Source: an uncultured SAR86 cluster bacterium
GTDB taxonomy: Bacteria; Pseudomonadota; Gammaproteobacteria; Magnimaribacterales; Magnimaribacteraceae
Assembly (NCBI GenBank): GCA_902537425.1
Contig: CACBBD010000001.1
Span: 231,790-295,789 of the forward strand
Length of the DNA: 64,000 bases
Direction: 5' to 3'
Both the position numbers and the translations under genes were made by a program. The notes below the pieces were generated by a model. It saw only the letters and a program-made list of their open reading frames with translations. It searched no databases and had not been told where the DNA came from. Positions 21,147 to 33,206 of the stretch are shown in pieces. Each line of letters starts with the position of its first letter. Within the stretch, counting starts at the first letter, position 1.

Positions 21147-21311
21147 TTAAGCAACTCTTTCGACGCCGCGGTAAATTCCTTTACCTGGCTGAGTTGACTT
21201 ACTTTCTACGATTTTTTGCTGAACGCCTCTGTAAACAGTGTTAGCAGATGTTTCGCTTCCTGCTGCATTGTTTAAAGGAGCAGCTTCAACACCTCTGTAT
21301 ATAGTAGTCAT
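21147..21311 (-). CDS. 54-aa protein with three YRGV motifs (DUF4278-like)
   Basis: MTTIYRGV...TVYRGV...GIYRGVERVA; GGAGGG RBS at 21318-21323; start trimmed to ATG 21311. Confidence 0.8.
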   Translation of the reverse strand: MTTIYRGVEAAPLNNAAGSETSANTVYRGVQQKIVESKSTQPGKGIYRGVERVA

Positions 21312-21374
21312 ATCGTGCCCTCCAGTTTTCGTATCGATTTCGTACATATATCTTTCGATATACACCCTTCTCAA

Positions 21375-26540: not shown

Positions 26541-27338
26541 TCATCCATGTTTTTTGATCAAATTTATTGCCCATTTCTTAACATTTGGATTTTTTTCAAT
26601 ATCCAGAATGAATTCTTGGCCAAATCCTCTGTAAAAAACTGTGGATTCTTCCTCATTCTCCCACTTCATTCTATTTAAAAAAAGGTCTTTTGAATCCTTA
26701 AAATATTTGGAGGGTAACTTCCATCTAGATCTGGTTTTATTTTCTTCAGTCAGAATTAAATCTGTATGAGTATATCTAAATAATCCATGGCCTCGGTCAA
26801 AAATTTTTCTTTTATTAAGTTCCAATCGTTTCTTAGCTATGTAAATTGTATTATTAGAAAACCTGGAGGTGTCTCCATATCCATGAGGGTGTTGAATATT
26901 ATTCTCACGAAGATAACTTTTAATTTTTTTTGACCCTTCTATGATTTTATCTATTTGCAACCAGCCAAATAAATGATGCAAATCTCTGCCATCTGCAGAG
27001 AAATTTTTAAACCATCCAAAAAATAAAAACACATCTCCAGGACCTACATGATTATTCTTTAATTCAGTCTGAGATGAGCTGGCTTGTCCAAAAATACCTA
27101 TTCTTTCGTTGAGCAACGGATCATAATGACAATAATCCGTATCCTTCACTTTAGCCGAGACCTCTTTCAATAAATCAGAACCTGATATGCCATTAAAATC
27201 CAGGTCTTTATATTTTTTTGGTGAACAATGATTTTGGGGGATAGGTATTGAAAAAAAGCTTCCATCATTAAATATAGGTGAAGCACTACCACCCGCTTTT
27301 GAGTCAAAACCCTTTCTACTTAATATTAATCTCCTCAA
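26541..27338 (-). CDS. Nucleotide modification associated domain 3 (Nmad3)-like protein
   Basis: ILSRKGFDSKAGG..SPI, HYDP, FGQ, GDVFLFFGWF, LFGWLQI. Confidence 0.7.
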   Translation of the reverse strand: MRRLILSRKGFDSKAGGSASPIFNDGSFFSIPIPQNHCSPKKYKDLDFNGISGSDLLKEVSAKVKDTDYCHYDPLLNERIGIFGQASSSQTELKNNHVGPGDVFLFFGWFKNFSADGRDLHHLFGWLQIDKIIEGSKKIKSYLRENNIQHPHGYGDTSRFSNNTIYIAKKRLELNKRKIFDRGHGLFRYTHTDLILTEENKTRSRWKLPSKYFKDSKDLFLNRMKWENEEESTVFYRGFGQEFILDIEKNPNVKKWAINLIKKHG

Positions 27339-27355
27339 CTATCCTTTATTTATAG

Positions 27356-27715
27356 TTAACCAAAGCCAATAGAACAGAAACCAGAATATATAATCAACAT
27401 TCCATCATCAATCGTACTTAGTCTCCCTTCTACACCCATATCTCCTCCAACGAGATAAACTGTTCCTTTGTCGGTTTCGCCTGCTCTAAAAATTTCCTGT
27501 GTATCCAGATTGGCCAAAAGTGAGTTTTCCATTGGTAGTGATAAACCATCACCAAATATGTCCCATATATCTTCATAGCCAGCAGTACCAATCCAGGCAC
27601 CAGAAGAAGTAGAGTAAGCCTCACCTGACATAAAATTACAACTTACGGTTGCTGCCTTGATGTTGGGCGATAAAAATAAAGCTAAGAAGATTAATTTGAT
27701 TAAATAATTTTTCAT
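27356..27715 (-). CDS. Secreted hypothetical protein
   Basis: Signal peptide; AGGAG RBS; two Cys. Confidence 0.65.
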   Translation of the reverse strand: MKNYLIKLIFLALFLSPNIKAATVSCNFMSGEAYSTSSGAWIGTAGYEDIWDIFGDGLSLPMENSLLANLDTQEIFRAGETDKGTVYLVGGDMGVEGRLSTIDDGMLIIYSGFCSIGFG

Positions 27716-27850: not shown

Positions 27851-27904
27851 TATTACTTGGGGTGAACTAATCCACAGTGACTGATTAGTTTTAAGAAGTG
27901 ATTT
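27851..27904 (-). repeat. Junction site A (core 27870-27885; reads SVTVD-stop)
   Basis: + strand cta|atccacagtgactgat|tagttttaagaagtgattt. Confidence 0.85.
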
Positions 27905-27910
27905 AATTCT

Positions 27911-28354
27911 TTATTTTCCAGTTGAAATATTTATTGGAATTATAGCCATCTTTAATTTCCAATAATCTCCTCTTTTTATTAAAGTTAAATTTGTATCCGT
28001 TGATATAAGTTCAATATCTTGATTGTTAAATCTAGTGAAATTAGTTTTATATATTGCAAAATCTTTTTGTGAAACTAATGGATCTGTGGAATTGATTTTT
28101 GAATATGACCAACCTTCTTTTTTTAAGTTTTCATAATTAACAATTTCACTGTAACTTTTTGCAACTATTATTTCATCGCCAACAAAATAAGTAATTGGTA
28201 AATCCCATAGCTCATTAATTTTATTTATATCCATCTCATTGAAATGATAGAAAAAATCTTCGATCACTTTCTCAGGGTTGTTGTTTGAGTCTTTTGCAAA
28301 TAACAAAGAAGAAAATAAAAATAAAGTTACTAAAATGTTTCTCATAAAAATCAC
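27911..28354 (-). CDS. Secreted NTF2-like hypothetical protein (module 5 cargo)
   Basis: Signal peptide from ATG 28345 (alt GTG 28354); EKVIEDFFYHFN...W..SKI...NFTRFN...WKL. Confidence 0.65.
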   Translation of the reverse strand: MIFMRNILVTLFLFSSLLFAKDSNNNPEKVIEDFFYHFNEMDINKINELWDLPITYFVGDEIIVAKSYSEIVNYENLKKEGWSYSKINSTDPLVSQKDFAIYKTNFTRFNNQDIELISTDTNLTLIKRGDYWKLKMAIIPINISTGK

Positions 28355-28401
28355 TTTTTAAAATTACTCCACTGTAACAGGGTATCTGTAGCAAGGTTTC
28401 T
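28348..28401 (-). repeat. Junction site B (core 28367-28382; PVTVE-stop, plus RNLA-like relic)
   Basis: + strand aaatcactttttaaaatta|ctccactgtaacaggg|tatctgtagcaaggtttct. Confidence 0.85.
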
Positions 28402-28571
28402 CATGGATTTAATAGGTCTATGAGAGAATTATTTTCATCCACGATCCTGTGTCGTATGTCTTTTTGTTTTACCATCTGCTTCATTACACGGAAAGCATCT
28501 GCTTCATTTGTTTTGGTTTGATAGTGTTGCCAGTTACCCCACCTGTCTTGCCACTGTATTTTATATTTCAT
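28401..28571 (-). CDS. 56-aa hypothetical protein (below ORF-track cutoff; module 4 cargo)
   Basis: Manual translation MKYKIQWQDRWGNWQHYQTKTNEADAFRVMKQMVKQKDIRHRIVDENNSLIDLLNP; starts 2 nt after upstream stop and fills the gap. Confidence 0.65.
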   Translation of the reverse strand: MKYKIQWQDRWGNWQHYQTKTNEADAFRVMKQMVKQKDIRHRIVDENNSLIDLLNP

Positions 28572-28573
28572 TG

Positions 28574-28960
28574 TTATCCAAATAATATGTGATGAAAAAA
28601 TCTTCCTGGCATCAAAGTAAATGCACCAGCAATCAAAAGTGCCCCAACATAAACACCAATCATCGAATACATATGTGAGTATTTGTATCTTTCTATTTTT
28701 GTTTTTTTATATTTCTTTATGTTCCAAATTGAATAAATCAGAGAAACCAAAGTGAAGGGTATCAAAAGATGAATCCATGAATATTGTCCAGGGTTAATTG
28801 TTTGAATAAATATTGCTGTCAAAGAAACTATTATTAAAAAAGTTACCCAGATTCGTCCGAGCATTTTATGTTGCTTTGTGCCCTTTTTAGTTAGGAAGAT
28901 GTAAAGACCAAGAGGAACTGCAAGTAATGCTAACGTTGCATGAACATAAATTATCTGCAT
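28574..28960 (-). CDS. DUF2306 family membrane protein (module 4 cargo)
   Basis: HATLA...KGTKQHKMLGRIWV...WIHLL...GALLIAGAFTLMPGR. Confidence 0.8.
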   Translation of the reverse strand: MQIIYVHATLALLAVPLGLYIFLTKKGTKQHKMLGRIWVTFLIIVSLTAIFIQTINPGQYSWIHLLIPFTLVSLIYSIWNIKKYKKTKIERYKYSHMYSMIGVYVGALLIAGAFTLMPGRFFHHILFG

Positions 28961-28972
28961 ATTTTATATTTT

Positions 28973-29026
28973 AATTCTCTGTTCAAACTTACTCCACCGT
29001 GACTGATTAGATTTGAACAGTGATTT
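28973..29026 (-). repeat. Junction site C (core 28992-29007; SVTVE-stop)
   Basis: + strand aattctctgttcaaactta|ctccaccgtgactgat|tagatttgaacagtgattt; closest copy to glmS. Confidence 0.9.
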
Positions 29027-29032
29027 GATTTT

Positions 29033-29227
29033 TTATCCATAATTGTCCGAAAAATATTTTTCTCTATCTTCTTTATTCATGCCAACTGTTTCGTTCATAA
29101 AATTGTTTCTATCTTCTCTAGATTTAAAGACCCATATACAAACAGTGTCCTGTGAGTGATAGATTGCTTTTAGTTCATCATCTATTTCACAGATTTCTTT
29201 AGGGATTTCTGTCTTAATACAAATCAC
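29033..29227 (-). CDS. 64-aa hypothetical protein (module 3 cargo)
   Basis: ORF fills the module; GTG start lies in terminal IR. Confidence 0.65.
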   Translation of the reverse strand: MICIKTEIPKEICEIDDELKAIYHSQDTVCIWVFKSREDRNNFMNETVGMNKEDREKYFSDNYG

Positions 29228-29274
29228 GATTCAAATCTACTCAACGGTAACAAATTAGATTTGAGTGCAGAATT
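29221..29274 (-). repeat. Junction site D (core 29240-29255; FVTVE-stop)
   Basis: + strand aaatcacgattcaaatcta|ctcaacggtaacaaat|tagatttgagtgcagaatt. Confidence 0.88.
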
Positions 29275-29346
29275 AAGAGTATAGTTTTTTCTGAACCCTT
29301 TGTGAAACTTCAAATAAAATTCAATATCTTTATAGTTCATAAAAAA

Positions 29347-29703
29347 TCAACATATCATGCAATGATCGATAAGAATTTTGCCCTCTTCTTCCTTAAAAAT
29401 TGCTTGATTGATCAATTCGTCGTTGCTTGAAGAAGTTTTTTGTTTCCAAACAATTCCAACTGAGTCGCTTCTTCGAAATAAACACACAAACTCTCTTTTA
29501 GTCCAAAAAATATTTGGTTCAATTGATAACTGTCTTTTGAGTTCTTCAGGTGTAACTATGGACTTCATTCTATCTGTGAAATCCTTTGTATGCTTTTTAT
29601 GGTCACCCTCATTGGAACCCTCCAAACAACTATCCATAATCGGTTCTACTATACTAAGAATTTCATCTTCACTAAGATTGGGGAGTTTCAATTCTGCACT
29701 CAA
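29347..29703 (-). CDS. Hypothetical protein (module 2 cargo)
   Basis: 118-aa ORF; TTG start within terminal IR. Confidence 0.7.
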   Translation of the reverse strand: MSAELKLPNLSEDEILSIVEPIMDSCLEGSNEGDHKKHTKDFTDRMKSIVTPEELKRQLSIEPNIFWTKREFVCLFRRSDSVGIVWKQKTSSSNDELINQAIFKEEEGKILIDHCMIC

Positions 29704-29743
29704 GATTATTCAACCGTAACGGAGTAAGGTGAACCGATCTTTC
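29690..29743 (-). repeat. Junction site E (core 29709-29724; SVTVE-stop)
   Basis: + strand aattctgcactcaagatta|ttcaaccgtaacggag|taaggtgaaccgatctttc. Confidence 0.88.
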
Positions 29744-29861
29744 TCATACCCACTATCTTAGCAGTATTTGAAAGGGTTTGAGTTTGCTTGCATGAATTAC
29801 TCATTTTTACTTTAGATACCTTCTACTATTTCACAAATTAACACTAGTTGAGGTTTTTCTC

Positions 29862-30791
29862 CTATCCTTTAAATCCAATCCAAAACTTTTCTACATAATT
29901 GTTTTCAATTGATAGTCTAAGTTCTTCCGTGAATTTATTATGTATTCCTTTCTTCTCAGTGATTTTTAGCAAATTTATATTTCTAGTCTTTAAATTTTCT
30001 ATCATCTTTTTGTTTGGTAGTCTGTTACTTTTAGAACTATTTTCTTCAGGCAAAACATACACTAAATTCCATAAATCATCTGAATACATATAGGACCAAG
30101 GAATAACATGATCTATAGAAGGTGTTCCTAAAATTTTTTTTCCGGTTAAAAAACACTTTCTCTTAGGATTTTCTTCATCTATAAATTTACGAAATTTATT
30201 TAGATTTCCACGTTTTGGAAATTGATCTCTATCAACTCCTTTAATTTTTTTTGATATTCTGGGTGACCCATCCATAGTTTCTAGTTCTTGTGTCCAACGA
30301 TAGTTAATTGAGTTATATAAAATCTCTGAATAGGTTTTTAAAACCTCTGGATTAGATATTTCAATTTCTCTATTACTTAGGTCATAGTCATAAATTTTAT
30401 TTACCTTTCCTCCAAGATTTAAAAATCTTTTACATACATCCTTCTTTAAAACTGAACTAATTTTTGTAACTGGAATATCTATTTTGCTCTCAACCCTAAG
30501 AAATGTTTCTTTTTTAAAACCCCTTGAGGATTGGTATTCTCTAATGGAATTTTCAACAATTTGTATGATCTCTGGTTTTTTGTTTCTGTTGTGACTTTGA
30601 TTGAGATTAAAAAAAATACACTGATTCCAATAATACTTAAAGATTAATCTAGATAACTGATCAAAATGAACTTTCTTTTTGGGTGTTTTTTCACAAAATT
30701 CAACGATAGACCTTATCCAAGACATTTTGTAAGTGTTATCCATAGATCCATAATTTATGAGATCTAACGTTTTTTTAAGATACGGATCCAT
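29862..30791 (-). CDS. HNH endonuclease domain protein (module 1 cargo)
   Basis: N-terminal DNTYK motif; C-terminal CFLTG...IDHVIPWS...DDLWNLV...ENSSKSN. Confidence 0.8.
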   Translation of the reverse strand: MDPYLKKTLDLINYGSMDNTYKMSWIRSIVEFCEKTPKKKVHFDQLSRLIFKYYWNQCIFFNLNQSHNRNKKPEIIQIVENSIREYQSSRGFKKETFLRVESKIDIPVTKISSVLKKDVCKRFLNLGGKVNKIYDYDLSNREIEISNPEVLKTYSEILYNSINYRWTQELETMDGSPRISKKIKGVDRDQFPKRGNLNKFRKFIDEENPKRKCFLTGKKILGTPSIDHVIPWSYMYSDDLWNLVYVLPEENSSKSNRLPNKKMIENLKTRNINLLKITEKKGIHNKFTEELRLSIENNYVEKFWIGFKG

Positions 30792-31189
30792 TAATATTTT
30801 TGTTTATGAGGAATTACTCCTCTAACTCCGCCACTTGGGTCTTCAACGTCATTTTTGTACCTTGGAATTAGATGAATATGAACATGGTCTATTGTTTGAC
30901 CACTTTCTTGTCCACAGTTGATTCCGATATTGTATCCCTGTGGTTCAAATTTTTTATCTAAGTAGTCTTTAGTTTGAAAAATTAATTCATTTAATCCTCT
31001 GACCTCTTCTTCAGTGGAATCAAAATAGTTTGGGTAAACTCTTTTTGGAATAATTAGAGAGTGTCCTTCACTTACTGGGAAATTATCAAAAATTACAAAT
31101 CCAATAGAGTTCTCAAAAATACGTTTTCTGTTATCTAAAAATGGACTTCTGAAATCTTTTGGGTCACTCATAAAAATATTCTGCCACAA
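30791..31189 (-). CDS. HIT family nucleotide hydrolase (module 1 cargo)
   Basis: FPVSEGHSLIIPKR, GYNIGINCGQESGQTIDHVHIHLIPR; start may be ATG 31171. Confidence 0.92.
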   Translation of the reverse strand: MWQNIFMSDPKDFRSPFLDNRKRIFENSIGFVIFDNFPVSEGHSLIIPKRVYPNYFDSTEEEVRGLNELIFQTKDYLDKKFEPQGYNIGINCGQESGQTIDHVHIHLIPRYKNDVEDPSGGVRGVIPHKQKY

Positions 31190-31370
31190 CTCCTAATAAA
31201 TATCCTGTGAATACACATAAGAGATCGCAACAAGTCATATCAACACCTTATGACTTCCACTAACACGAAAAAATAGGTGAGAATTTAAGGGTAGTTTTTA
31301 CCAGGGTTAAGTTTTAGTGATTTTTGAAACCCCCGCAGAATGAGGTGTTAAAACGAAAGTTGGGTTGAAC

Positions 31371-33206
31371 TTACTCCACCGTCACTGACTTAGCGAGGTT
31401 TCGCGGCTGATCAATGTCAGTACCTTTAAGGATGGCAACATGATAAGCAAGAAGCTGTAATGGTATCGAGTAAATTAGAGGAGCAATCAACTCTGGGACT
31501 TCAGGCAGTTCAATAAACTTAGTTATTGATTCATCTTCCTGATGAGCTGCAGAGTGTCCAAATACATATAGCTTTCCTCCTCGCGCTCTAACTTCTTCTA
31601 AGTTTGATTGAAGCTTTGCAAGCAGATCATCATTAGGAGCAACCGCGACGACAGGCATTTCTGAATCAACAAGAGCCAATGGTCCATGTTTTAATTCTCC
31701 TGCAGGATATGCTTCTGCATGAATATAGGAAATTTCTTTAAGCTTTAGTGCACCTTCCATAGCTACGGGGTAATGAATGCCTCTACCCAAAAAGAGAGCA
31801 TGTTCCTTTTGATCAAAATCTTCTGCCATTTCAATAATTTGATCTTCAAGCAACATTACCGAATCTAAAGAATCAGGTAGTGCTCTAAGTGAATTATTTA
31901 TGGTATTTTCTGCAGCCGAGGATAGACCATGATGCCTTCCGAGAATTAAAGTTAACATCAATAAGCCAACGAGCTGAGTGGTAAAGGCTTTTGTTGAAGC
32001 AACACCTATTTCAGGGCCTGCTTTGGTTAAAAATACTAAATCAGATTCTCTCGCTAGAGAACTTGAAGGGACATTGCATATTCCTAGTCGAGCTAGGTAG
32101 CCTGAATCTTTAGCGGCACTTAAACATGCCAGTGTATCTGCTGTTTCACCAGACTGAGAAATGGTTATAAACAGGGTATTGGGTGCCACTACTTTATTTC
32201 TATATCTAAATTCACTTGCCACTTCTACGCTGCAGGGCAAACCGGCAAGACCTTCTAGCCAGTATTTAGCTACTGTTCCGGCATGGAAGCTAGTTCCACA
32301 AGCCACTATCTGAACGGCCTCAACATTTTTAAAAATATCAGGTGCACTAGGCCCAAATATTTCTTCTTGAACACCTGAATCAGTCAATTGTCCTTCTAAT
32401 AAGCCTTTAATTTTTGATGGCTGCTCATTAATTTCTTTTAGCATGAAGTGCCTATATTCACCTTTATCTACCGTCTCTCCTAAAGACTTGGCAACTACAA
32501 CAGGTCTTTCAACTTCAGTATCATCCAGATCCCAGTAGCGAATTCCTTTAGATGTGATTTCAGCAAGATCGCCGTCTTCAAGAAATACAAATTTCTCTGC
32601 AAAGTCCGCTAAAGCAAGTTGATCGGAAGCTATAAAATTTTCTCCGTGCCCCATACCGATAACCAAAGGGCTACCTTTTCTGGCTGAAGCCAAAATTCCA
32701 GGTTCGTTCTCACAAACTGCACCTATTGCATAAGCCCCTCTGAGATCCTTCACTGCCGCCTTCAAGGCATCGATTAAAGTTACTTTATTCTCGCTCATTT
32801 TTGCATGAATCAGATGAGCAATAACTTCTGTGTCTGTTTCTGACTCAAAAACATAACCTAAAGCTTTAAGTGTGGTTCTAATTTCTTGATGATTTTCAAT
32901 AATGCCGTTATGAATAACAAAAATATTATTATTTGAATGGTGCGGGTGAGCATTTGTCTCTGTTGGCAGGCCATGGGTTGCCCATCTGGTGTGGGCAATA
33001 CCCGTATTACCATTCACAGGATTTTGATCAATTGAATTTTGCAGTTCAGCTACCTTACCAGTGCTTTTAAATACCTTTATTTGTTCTGTTTCATCAAAAA
33101 TGGCAAGGCCAGCTGAGTCATATCCTCTATATTCCTGACGCAAAAGCCCTATCAGTAGTTTATCTACTGAGGGTTTACTGGAAGCTACTCCGATTATTCC
33201 ACACAT
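31371..33206 (-). CDS. glmS: Glutamine-fructose-6-phosphate aminotransferase
   Basis: MCGIIG, EYRGYDSAG, HTRWATHG, SQSGET, PRNLAKSVTVE. Confidence 0.98.
   Translation of the reverse strand: MCGIIGVASSKPSVDKLLIGLLRQEYRGYDSAGLAIFDETEQIKVFKSTGKVAELQNSIDQNPVNGNTGIAHTRWATHGLPTETNAHPHHSNNNIFVIHNGIIENHQEIRTTLKALGYVFESETDTEVIAHLIHAKMSENKVTLIDALKAAVKDLRGAYAIGAVCENEPGILASARKGSPLVIGMGHGENFIASDQLALADFAEKFVFLEDGDLAEITSKGIRYWDLDDTEVERPVVVAKSLGETVDKGEYRHFMLKEINEQPSKIKGLLEGQLTDSGVQEEIFGPSAPDIFKNVEAVQIVACGTSFHAGTVAKYWLEGLAGLPCSVEVASEFRYRNKVVAPNTLFITISQSGETADTLACLSAAKDSGYLARLGICNVPSSSLARESDLVFLTKAGPEIGVASTKAFTTQLVGLLMLTLILGRHHGLSSAAENTINNSLRALPDSLDSVMLLEDQIIEMAEDFDQKEHALFLGRGIHYPVAMEGALKLKEISYIHAEAYPAGELKHGPLALVDSEMPVVAVAPNDDLLAKLQSNLEEVRARGGKLYVFGHSAAHQEDESITKFIELPEVPELIAPLIYSIPLQLLAYHVAILKGTDIDQPRNLAKSVTVE

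What the first reader, a model, noticed from the sequence alone, without database searches (positions are those of the whole stretch)
27851..31392. glmS-anchored cassette array: IR-bounded mini-modules stacked at the glmS 3' end
Seen: five copies of the glmS terminus recur downstream of glmS with identical geometry (stop codon, 16-bp core, then TA). Cores: A 27870-27885, B 28367-28382, C 28992-29007, D 29240-29255, E 29709-29724; native 31374-31389. The DNA between cores forms modules with their own 19-bp terminal inverted repeats starting TA: module 1 29725-31373 (taaggtgaaccgatctttc vs taagttcaacccaactttc, 15/19), module 2 29256-29708 (16/19, 14 contiguous), module 3 29008-29239 (17/19), module 5 27886-28366 (17/19). 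Modules are only 0.23-1.65 kb, carry 1-2 AT-rich cargo genes, are all co-oriented with glmS and encode no recombinase. Inference: each module circularises as arm-core-arm (attP-like) and integrates site-specifically at the glmS end, restoring the C-terminus and pushing older modules downstream. That would be an integron-like gene-accretion platform with a trans-acting recombinase. I do not recognise it as a described system.
Basis: partly seen in the sequence, partly recalled or inferred. Interest (0 to 1): 0.92.

Follow-up and report, generated by a model that had tools for sequence, protein, structure and literature searches.

The report
Serine-recombinase cassette array behind glmS
Behind the essential gene glmS this marine bacterium carries a row of five tiny gene cassettes, each bounded by a copy of the gene's last codons; they were likely spliced in by a large serine recombinase found on rare, larger relatives, which would give these stripped-down ocean bacteria an integron-like way to trade single genes.

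Summary
Observation confirmed. The array is real and order-wide: 166 of 266 genomes have two or more core motifs on one strand, with content that differs from genome to genome. Window cassettes recur with exact ends in other families; the 248-bp one is 100% identical, with other neighbours. The crossover maps to the central AC of GTNAC, a serine-type signature. A relative carries a 6-kb element with the same anatomy and a large serine recombinase (LSR). Relatives of that LSR end at a glmS core in 90 of 101 loci, against 0 of 37 distant phage LSRs. Two such elements assembled as circles with the arm-core-arm site. The arms look like fossil LSR coding sequence. Circles of the small cassettes themselves, and enzyme activity, are not shown. 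It works like staphylococcal SCC islands at rlmH but fails SCC membership. I found no description in print (nine searches). This scan reached the same reading before on other genomes. Verdict: new variant of a known kind.

The parts
31371..33206 (-). glmS (611 aa), last gene of the atp-glmU-glmS run; its last codons form the chromosomal target (attB/attL)
31374..31389 (-). native core at the glmS end; crossover between 31382 and 31381 (central AC), 8 bases before the stop codon
29717..31381 (-). cassette 1, 1665 bp crossover to crossover, arms 15/19; its distal half-site matches LSR-adjacent half-sites of L152 and G205 at 22 of 27 bases
31169..31354 (-). conserved non-coding leader (about 190 bp) behind the proximal arm, shared with 18 other places in relatives that have other arms and other cargo; function unknown
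30791..31189 (-). cargo: HIT-family hydrolase (likely start is the ATG at 31171, where the leader ends)
29862..30791 (-). cargo: HNH_4 endonuclease, 309 aa; the HIT-HNH pair sits between other arms in G056 and G139
29744..29804 (-). conserved trailer (about 60 bp) before the distal arm, shared by most leader-type cassettes
   Evidence: contig joints at 29804
29709..29724 (-). core E; crossover between 29717 and 29716
29248..29716 (-). cassette 2, 469 bp, arms 16/19, one 118-aa ORF without Pfam match; same cassette with exact ends in G008 (94%), G199 (94%), G105 (99%)
29240..29255 (-). core D; crossover between 29248 and 29247
29000..29247 (-). cassette 3, 248 bp, arms 17/19, one 64-aa ORF; 100% identical in G199 and 99.6% in G047 (two other families), with other neighbours
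28992..29007 (-). core C; crossover between 29000 and 28999
28375..28999 (-). segment 4, 625 bp, IR 7/19: fusion of a DUF2306 cassette (28561-28999; 511 bp with both arms in G008, G019, G047) and a 204-bp cassette (28375-28572; separate in G008) after loss of the junction between them
28367..28382 (-). core B; crossover between 28375 and 28374
27878..28374 (-). cassette 5, 497 bp, arms 17/19, one 147-aa ORF, 25% GC; 99% identical in G008
27870..27885 (-). core A, most distal and degenerate (ends V-D-stop); crossover between 27878 and 27877; same core in G008

Best explanation
The array is a stack of five recombinase-less gene cassettes joined at copies of the glmS end, likely integrated one after another by a glmS-specific large serine recombinase supplied in trans. 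SHOWN by sequence comparison: the core is the last codons of glmS; cassettes change neighbours at the central AC; LSR genes of one broad family sit at this site in many bacterial groups; their elements occur as circles with arm-core-arm; the window genome has no such gene in its assembled part. INFERRED: a cassette is excised as a circle whose two ends form a roughly 54-bp attP; the LSR cuts at AC and joins it to the glmS end; the incoming half supplies T-V-E-stop, so glmS stays whole and older cassettes are pushed outward. INFERRED: the cassettes descend from full elements whose LSR and replication genes were replaced by cargo, which is why their arms still resemble the LSR's C-terminal coding sequence. 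In full elements a small recombinase-like helix-turn-helix ORF lies on the far side of attP and is joined to the LSR end only on the circle, in frame or as a coupled second gene; it is predicted to act in directionality control (untested). How circles travel between cells is not shown.
For: Crossover: in cassette pairs with the same start and other neighbours (78 pairs) the base at -2 matches at 0.23 (random 0.27) and the base at +2 at 0.72 (0.32); for the same end (56 pairs) 0.73 (0.29) and 0.30 (0.30). Two-bp crossover, modular DNA-binding domains and about 50-bp dyad att sites are the LSR pattern (passages of PMC11722253; PMC6222049). G205: 6047-bp first element, arms 18/19, LSR with Resolvase, Recombinase and Zn-ribbon domains, plus a REP_ORF2-G2P gene. 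The same arm is 19/19 on LSR-less cassettes in G199 and G043. Core at the LSR 3' end: 52 of 59 genome loci, 38 of 42 metagenome loci, 5 of 7 viral loci with near-full LSR match, 0 of 37 distant phage LSRs; background 1 core in 869 kb. L144 (99-bp terminal repeat) and L137 (47-bp) are circular contigs with arm-core-arm; L143 is the glmS-joined form of the L144 site. Arms of window cassettes 2, 3 and 5 encode 7, 8 and 6 of 15 residues of the linker in natural LSR proteins that read across the site (null 1.6-2.3; p 0.0002-0.0008). Both ends of one cassette match (IR of 13/19 or more in 64% of 219) while non-cognate ends do not (8%). Polarity. Contig joints: one skips exactly 1665 bp; one puts cassette 5 directly at glmS.
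Against: No activity was measured. No LSR with arms matching cassettes 2, 3 or 5 at DNA level was found: best 17-18 of 27 among 104 LSR-adjacent half-sites; for these the link rests on peptides. Only 11 of 218 cassettes match a sampled LSR arm at 16/19 or better. The G205-type LSR was found in an array in 1 of 266 genomes. 67 of 219 segments have IR of 9/19 or less. The one joint that looks like a circle of cassette 1 has depth 3.4 and could be a same-arm tandem, as G008 has. How one enzyme copes with so many arm sequences is unexplained. Adjacent cassettes do not avoid sharing arms (9% against 8%), although a strict directionality model would predict avoidance.
Confidence: 0.8

Rival explanations
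1. Graveyard: the segments are immobile, internally deleted remains of full LSR elements. They move only as passengers when a neighbouring full element excises with them, or by homologous recombination of the whole island.
For: Length and IR quality fall with distance from glmS (median 951 bp and 76% intact at position 1; 496 bp and 53% at position 4 or more; rho -0.28 and -0.22). 20 LSR-less segments keep the small att-side ORF, most at position 1. Segment 4 is a deletion fusion. LSRs are rare. The reversed order of cassettes 2 and 3 in G199 could come from one two-cassette circle.
Against: The 248-bp cassette is 99.6-100% identical in three families (glmS of G047 is 54% identical), each time with other neighbours and exact ends. 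Six-member clusters of 186-bp and 538-bp cassettes occur in unrelated array positions. One leader/trailer backbone carries many cargos between several arm types. The enzyme would still be the LSR.
Confidence: 0.15
2. A tyrosine recombinase (host XerC/D as for pdif modules, or an integron-type integrase) moves the cassettes, using the central 8 bp as overlap.
For: The only recombinases found in the window genome are two XerC/XerD-like genes. The joined site has an 8-bp asymmetric centre between inverted arms. Cassettes are single-gene sized and mostly co-oriented (318 of 384 ORFs).
Against: The bases at -2 and +2 assort independently with the left and right partner, which a 6-8-bp homologous overlap would not give (established tyrosine-recombinase behaviour, recalled). 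Junctions in the array are not hairpins. The site is tied to LSR genes across taxa.
Confidence: 0.03
3. Tn7-type or IS/MITE insertions with target duplications, or an assembly artefact.
For: glmS is the classic Tn7 site (recalled). The modules have terminal inverted repeats that start with TA in this genome.
Against: No TnsD in the genome (74% complete). The junction lies inside the last codons. The repeats differ at synonymous positions instead of being identical duplications. The arrays recur in 34 of 41 unselected loci and in independent metagenome runs.
Confidence: 0.02

Closest known systems
Staphylococcal and enterococcal cassette chromosomes (SCC/SCCmec, pseudo-SCC, ECC) at rlmH, moved by CcrAB/CcrC
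   Same: Large serine recombinase; target is the last five codons plus stop of a conserved gene, left intact; several direct repeats partition a variable region downstream; ccr-less segments exist; about 50-bp att sites with dyad symmetry; circles (passages of PMC4723332; PMC6222049).
   Different: Target is glmS with GTNAC, not rlmH with TATCATAA. One LSR far below the Ccr cut-offs. Units are single-gene sized (median 629 bp) against 8.9 and 32 kb in the papers read. Each cassette has its own arm pair. 218 of 219 segments show no LSR.
Integrons (IntI, attI, attC cassettes)
   Same: Polar array of small, mostly single-ORF, co-oriented cassettes whose ORF starts close to the junction (first ORF within 60 bp in 62% of 199).
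   Different: No resident integrase; no hairpin at each junction; serine-type 2-bp crossover; the site is a host gene end. Integron features are recalled, not read here.
Tycheposons and additive genomic islands of Prochlorococcus
   Same: Small cargo elements of streamlined marine bacteria; new arrivals push older ones outward, leaving partial target copies (passages of 10.1101/2020.12.28.424599).
   Different: Those target tRNA genes, mostly with tyrosine recombinases carried on the element; that text has no mention of glmS or SAR86.
Archaeal 'suicidal' integrases (SSV1, pTN3)
   Same: The attachment site lies in or at the integrase reading frame, so integration splits coding sequence (passages of PMC8371274, which calls this exclusive to archaea).
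   Different: Here a serine enzyme in bacteria; only a C-terminal, roughly 110-aa domain is cut off and the catalytic, recombinase and zinc-ribbon domains stay whole. In most type I elements the piece is a separate coupled ORF.
Tn7 at attTn7
   Same: Uses the conserved glmS 3' end as a safe site (recalled).
   Different: Transposase chemistry, insertion behind the stop codon (recalled); no TnsD here.

Membership tests
Large-serine-recombinase integrative elements | LSR with catalytic, recombinase and zinc-ribbon domains tied to the site | tested here: met
   G205 element and 95 of 108 near-full LSR loci; not encoded in the window genome
Large-serine-recombinase integrative elements | crossover within a central dinucleotide | tested here: met
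   linkage of flanking variable bases; L143 against L144
Large-serine-recombinase integrative elements | about 50-bp attP with dyad symmetry, present on a circle | tested here: met
   symmetry +6 to +27; circular contigs L137, L144. Shown for full elements, not for the small cassettes
Large-serine-recombinase integrative elements | recombination activity and a directionality factor | not testable with these tools
SCC / ECC | direct repeats encoding the last codons of the target gene, multiple copies downstream | tested here: met
   compare
SCC / ECC | integration at rlmH (orfX) with the TATCATAA core | tested here: not met
   target is glmS, core GTNACNGT
SCC / ECC | CcrA/CcrB/CcrC recombinase | tested here: not met
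   G205 LSR scores 80.8, 60.3 and 45.2 bits against cut-offs 900, 700 and 900
Integron | IntI tyrosine integrase beside the array | tested here: not met
   two PF00589 hits, both on other contigs and best matching XerC/XerD; genome 74% complete; none among 18 window ORFs and 92 ORFs of relatives scanned
Integron | attC hairpin at each cassette junction | tested here: not met
   same-junction IR of 13/19 or more in 9%, random 8%; no attC model was run
Integron | polar accretion of small co-oriented cassettes | tested here: met
Xer/pdif modules | identical central 6 bp between partners, fixed XerC/XerD arms (recalled) | tested here: not met
   bases at -2 and +2 assort independently; arms differ between cassettes
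Tn7 / attTn7 | TnsD, insertion behind the glmS stop with a short duplication (recalled) | tested here: not met
   no PF15978 hit; crossover 8 bases before the stop
Tycheposons | tRNA target and element-borne integrase | tested here: not met
   protein-gene target; no integrase in the cassettes
Suicidal (att-split) integrases | att site inside the integrase reading frame | tested here: inconclusive
   LSR frame open up to the crossover in 25 of 31 type II and 15 of 72 type I loci; natural read-through proteins exist; catalytic part is not cut

The most novel reading that the evidence does not exclude
A serine-recombinase counterpart of the integron in a dominant ocean lineage. Single-gene cassettes circulate across families as free circles, built on reusable backbones that swap both cargo and att arms. 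They are served in trans by a rare, widespread glmS-specific LSR family whose own C-terminal DNA-binding module is joined to it only on the circle, a directionality switch built into attP.
Probability: 0.4. Interest if true: 0.88.

Novelty: new variant of a known kind. Interest (0 to 1): 0.72.

Why it matters
Streamlined marine bacteria have large accessory gene pools but few known carriers. This names a site, an enzyme family and a unit of exchange for a whole order, and makes them testable with short synthetic att sites. The target, the last codons of glmS, matched in 300 of 401 genomes across the phylum, and the LSR family sits there in Alpha-, Beta- and Gammaproteobacteria, Bacteroidetes and Verrucomicrobia (record titles). 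It could therefore be a broad-host, gene-sparing integration tool beside Tn7. Island catalogues that require an integrase gene and 2 kb (TIGER/Islander, whole text read) would miss most of these cassettes. The att-split small ORF may be an undescribed way to control LSR direction.

Tried and rejected
No LSR or att-side ORF in the window genome by Pfam, tblastn or own profiles, and none of the five window segments keeps the small ORF. Viral contigs gave little: no close relative of the G205 LSR or of P0195, no match to the leader motif, one match to the common arm motif that I did not examine beyond two blasts. Annotated phages hold only distant LSRs under 30%. The fold of the small ORF (pLDDT 72) had no PDB match at E 0.001; Bxb1 integrase came at rank 31, so nothing is drawn from it. 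Complex prediction of LSR with the small ORF was not available, so binding is open. Leader as structured RNA: consensus folds weak, 2-3 pairs with double changes, z-scores mixed; no Rfam family at threshold; promoter-like sites no more frequent than in shuffles (15 against 19). My idea that the small ORF is always fused in frame failed for type I. The idea of slippage on A-runs at LSR ends was noticed but not tested. Avoidance of same-arm neighbours was not seen. Contig joints were read at 85-88% likeness, where the tool warns of other organisms; they count as relatives' arrangements, not as this strain's. Durrant et al. (PMC10083194): passages and a term search of 8 supplementary files showed no glmS; gene clusters there may be unnamed. 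The 2020 TIGER paper was not held and the TIGER database could not be seen; bioRxiv supplements are closed; either could list glmS-targeting serine integrases.
Full report
1. Observation. On the glmS strand every core reads four variable bases, then GTN ACN GTN GAR and a stop: the last codons of glmS. The motif occurs six times in the 1.34-Mb genome, all here; 2000 simulations of the region gave at most one. Cargo: HIT plus HNH_4, three short ORFs without a Pfam match, DUF2306 and a 56-aa ORF; 25-33% GC against 36% for the genome. The host is a small marine proteobacterium in an order of four families and 266 species. I take it to be SAR86; that name is recalled and inferred, no call gave it.

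2. Relatives. Of 41 loci fetched by glmS position alone (own genome plus 40), 34 have two or more cores. Across the order, 222 of 266 genomes match the motif, 166 have two or more on one strand and 110 three or more; places were listed for only 150 of 654 matches. With a stricter motif, 400 other genomes of the phylum gave three or more hits in 5, clustered in one of those whose places were listed, against 11 of the 41 order loci. Dense arrays are thus typical of this order in the sample searched. From 88 loci (47 chosen because they had cores or a recombinase-domain hit) I took 307 cores and 219 segments, median 629 bp. The two ends of one segment are inverted repeats (13/19 or more) in 64%, ends of different segments in 8%, the two sides of one junction in 9%. 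184 clusters among 218 segments show the diversity.

3. The window's cassettes move as units. Cassette 3 (248 bp) is 100% identical in G199 and 99.6% in G047, two other families; cassette 2 (469 bp) is 94-99% identical in G008, G199 and G105. All have exact ends and other neighbours, and cassettes 2 and 3 stand in reverse order in G199. Segment 4, which lacks an IR, is a fusion of two cassettes that are separate in G008. The last could be a circle or a same-arm tandem.

4. Crossover. In pairs that share a cassette but not the neighbour, the variable base two places left of the centre follows the left partner and the one two places right follows the right partner (0.73 against 0.29; 0.72 against 0.32; the cross comparisons are at chance; 14 and 20 independent groups give the same). 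Exchange therefore happens within the invariant AC. That is how serine recombinases work (passages of PMC11722253) and not how tyrosine recombinases with a homologous overlap work (recalled).

5. The enzyme. A search for the Recombinase domain hit 26 of 266 genomes. In G205 the first element behind glmS is 6047 bp, has arms of 18/19, a rolling-circle-type Rep gene, and a 551-aa LSR that ends at the distal arm. LSR-less cassettes in G199 and G043 carry the same arm. For relatives of this LSR matched over at least 450 residues and not cut off by a contig end, a core lies at the 3' end in 52 of 59 genome loci (42 exact), 38 of 42 metagenome loci and 5 of 7 viral loci; in 0 of 37 more distant phage LSRs (13 near-full loci were left out as truncated; only the best 79-80 loci per collection were returned). 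There are two layouts: LSR co-oriented and distal (type I), or antisense and converging on glmS (type II). L144 and L137 are contigs with exact terminal repeats and an arm-core-arm site, that is circles; L143 shows the L144 site joined to glmS, differing only left of AC. The window genome, 74% complete, has only XerC/XerD-like recombinases.

6. The att-split ORF. On the far side of attP from the LSR lies a roughly 110-aa ORF with a partial Recombinase (helix-turn-helix) match. On the circle it follows the LSR: in frame in most type II loci (25 of 31 open to the crossover), rarely in type I (15 of 72), where a start codon in the arm is common. Natural 700-aa read-through proteins exist, and the family is large and mostly stand-alone (519 clusters at 1e-10). 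It is kept in 20 LSR-less segments, with an in-frame start on the modelled circle in 15 of 21 against 4 of 21 as integrated, and dN/dS of 0.08-0.26 in the pairs with full-length ORFs (one copy has an early stop; the selection may date from full ancestors). The window's segments lack it, but the arms of cassettes 2, 3 and 5 encode 7, 8 and 6 of 15 residues of the read-through linker (p 0.0002-0.0008; cassette 1 and segment 4 do not). Cassette 1 instead matches arms of the G205-type LSRs at DNA level (22 of 27). Its function is not shown.

7. A reusable backbone. Cassette 1 shares a non-coding leader of about 190 bp, ending at the cargo start, and a 60-bp trailer with cassettes of 14 other genomes that have several arm types and unrelated cargo; its own cargo sits between other arms in G056 and G139. 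Contig joints at 29804 and about 31170-31220 agree. No RNA family or clear structure was found.

8. Polarity. In 82 arrays anchored at glmS, length, IR quality and retention of the small ORF fall with distance. This supports insertion at the glmS end and also some decay, the main rival.

9. Comparison. It works like SCC/ECC islands at rlmH (passages of PMC4723332 and PMC6222049; I took this comparison from earlier scan notes) but fails on target gene and Ccr identity. It looks like an integron in layout and fails on integrase and attC. It resembles tycheposon islands (passages) and, in the split ORF, archaeal suicidal integrases (passages). Nine answered searches bear on print status (listings and abstract openings only; one search was for SCC papers); none listed a glmS-targeting serine recombinase or such arrays. 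Durrant et al. has no glmS in the passages or 8 supplements searched. Subscription papers, bioRxiv supplements and the TIGER table were not visible.

10. Verdict. Real, likely LSR-driven, a new variant of a known kind. Eight earlier notes of this scan on other genomes reach the same reading; they are not independent proof, and my LSR and crossover results came before I read them. Interest 0.72.

Noticed in passing
67 of 219 segments in relatives; window 28375-28572: A class of segments has a distal arm but no matching proximal arm; their start is enriched for the GAA form of the last codon (42 of 67 against 37 of 141). They may be host DNA behind glmS captured between two cores.
   Followed up: partly
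L076, L079, L081 (G115, G046, G043): A second kind of LSR whose C-terminal residues look like a tRNA gene read antisense; likely tRNA-targeting. Not checked with a tRNA finder.
   Followed up: no
LSR 3' ends in L194, L197, L221, L238, L240, L249, L253, L271: Many type I LSRs end in a lysine run, and a shifted frame from there reads through attP into the small ORF; slippage on an A-run is possible. Direction of the shift differs between loci.
   Followed up: partly
L036:8755-18678 (G016) and G013: A 3200-3300-aa Calx-beta repeat protein lies about 800 bp behind glmS.
   Followed up: no
G024, G083, G199 (5.2-5.3-kb segments), G014, G060, G005, G030: Defence-type cargo is common: restriction-modification pairs, DarT with NADAR, SRA-HNH, MrcB/NucS-like and methyltransferase genes (Pfam shown for G024, G014, G060, G005, G030).
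   Followed up: no
window 26541-27338 and 27356-27715 (minus): An Nmad3 gene and a 119-aa ORF follow the last core and are shared by close relatives; they may be older cassettes whose junctions have eroded.
   Followed up: no
G567:C1:2697980-2698200 and G517:C1:685424-685507: Outside the order, glmS-end motifs repeat only 66 and 137 bp apart: possibly empty mini-cassettes or another repeat.
   Followed up: no
L100:19184-19645 (G205 element): The full element carries a REP_ORF2-G2P gene and an RHH-like gene, hinting at rolling-circle replication or a satellite lifestyle.
   Followed up: no
window 21147-21374 (minus): A 75-aa ORF with three YRGV repeats and a weak DUF4278 match.
   Followed up: no
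L198, L238, L253: Outside the order, full LSR elements are followed directly by a second element that starts with the small ORF, so stacking at glmS also happens there.
   Followed up: partly
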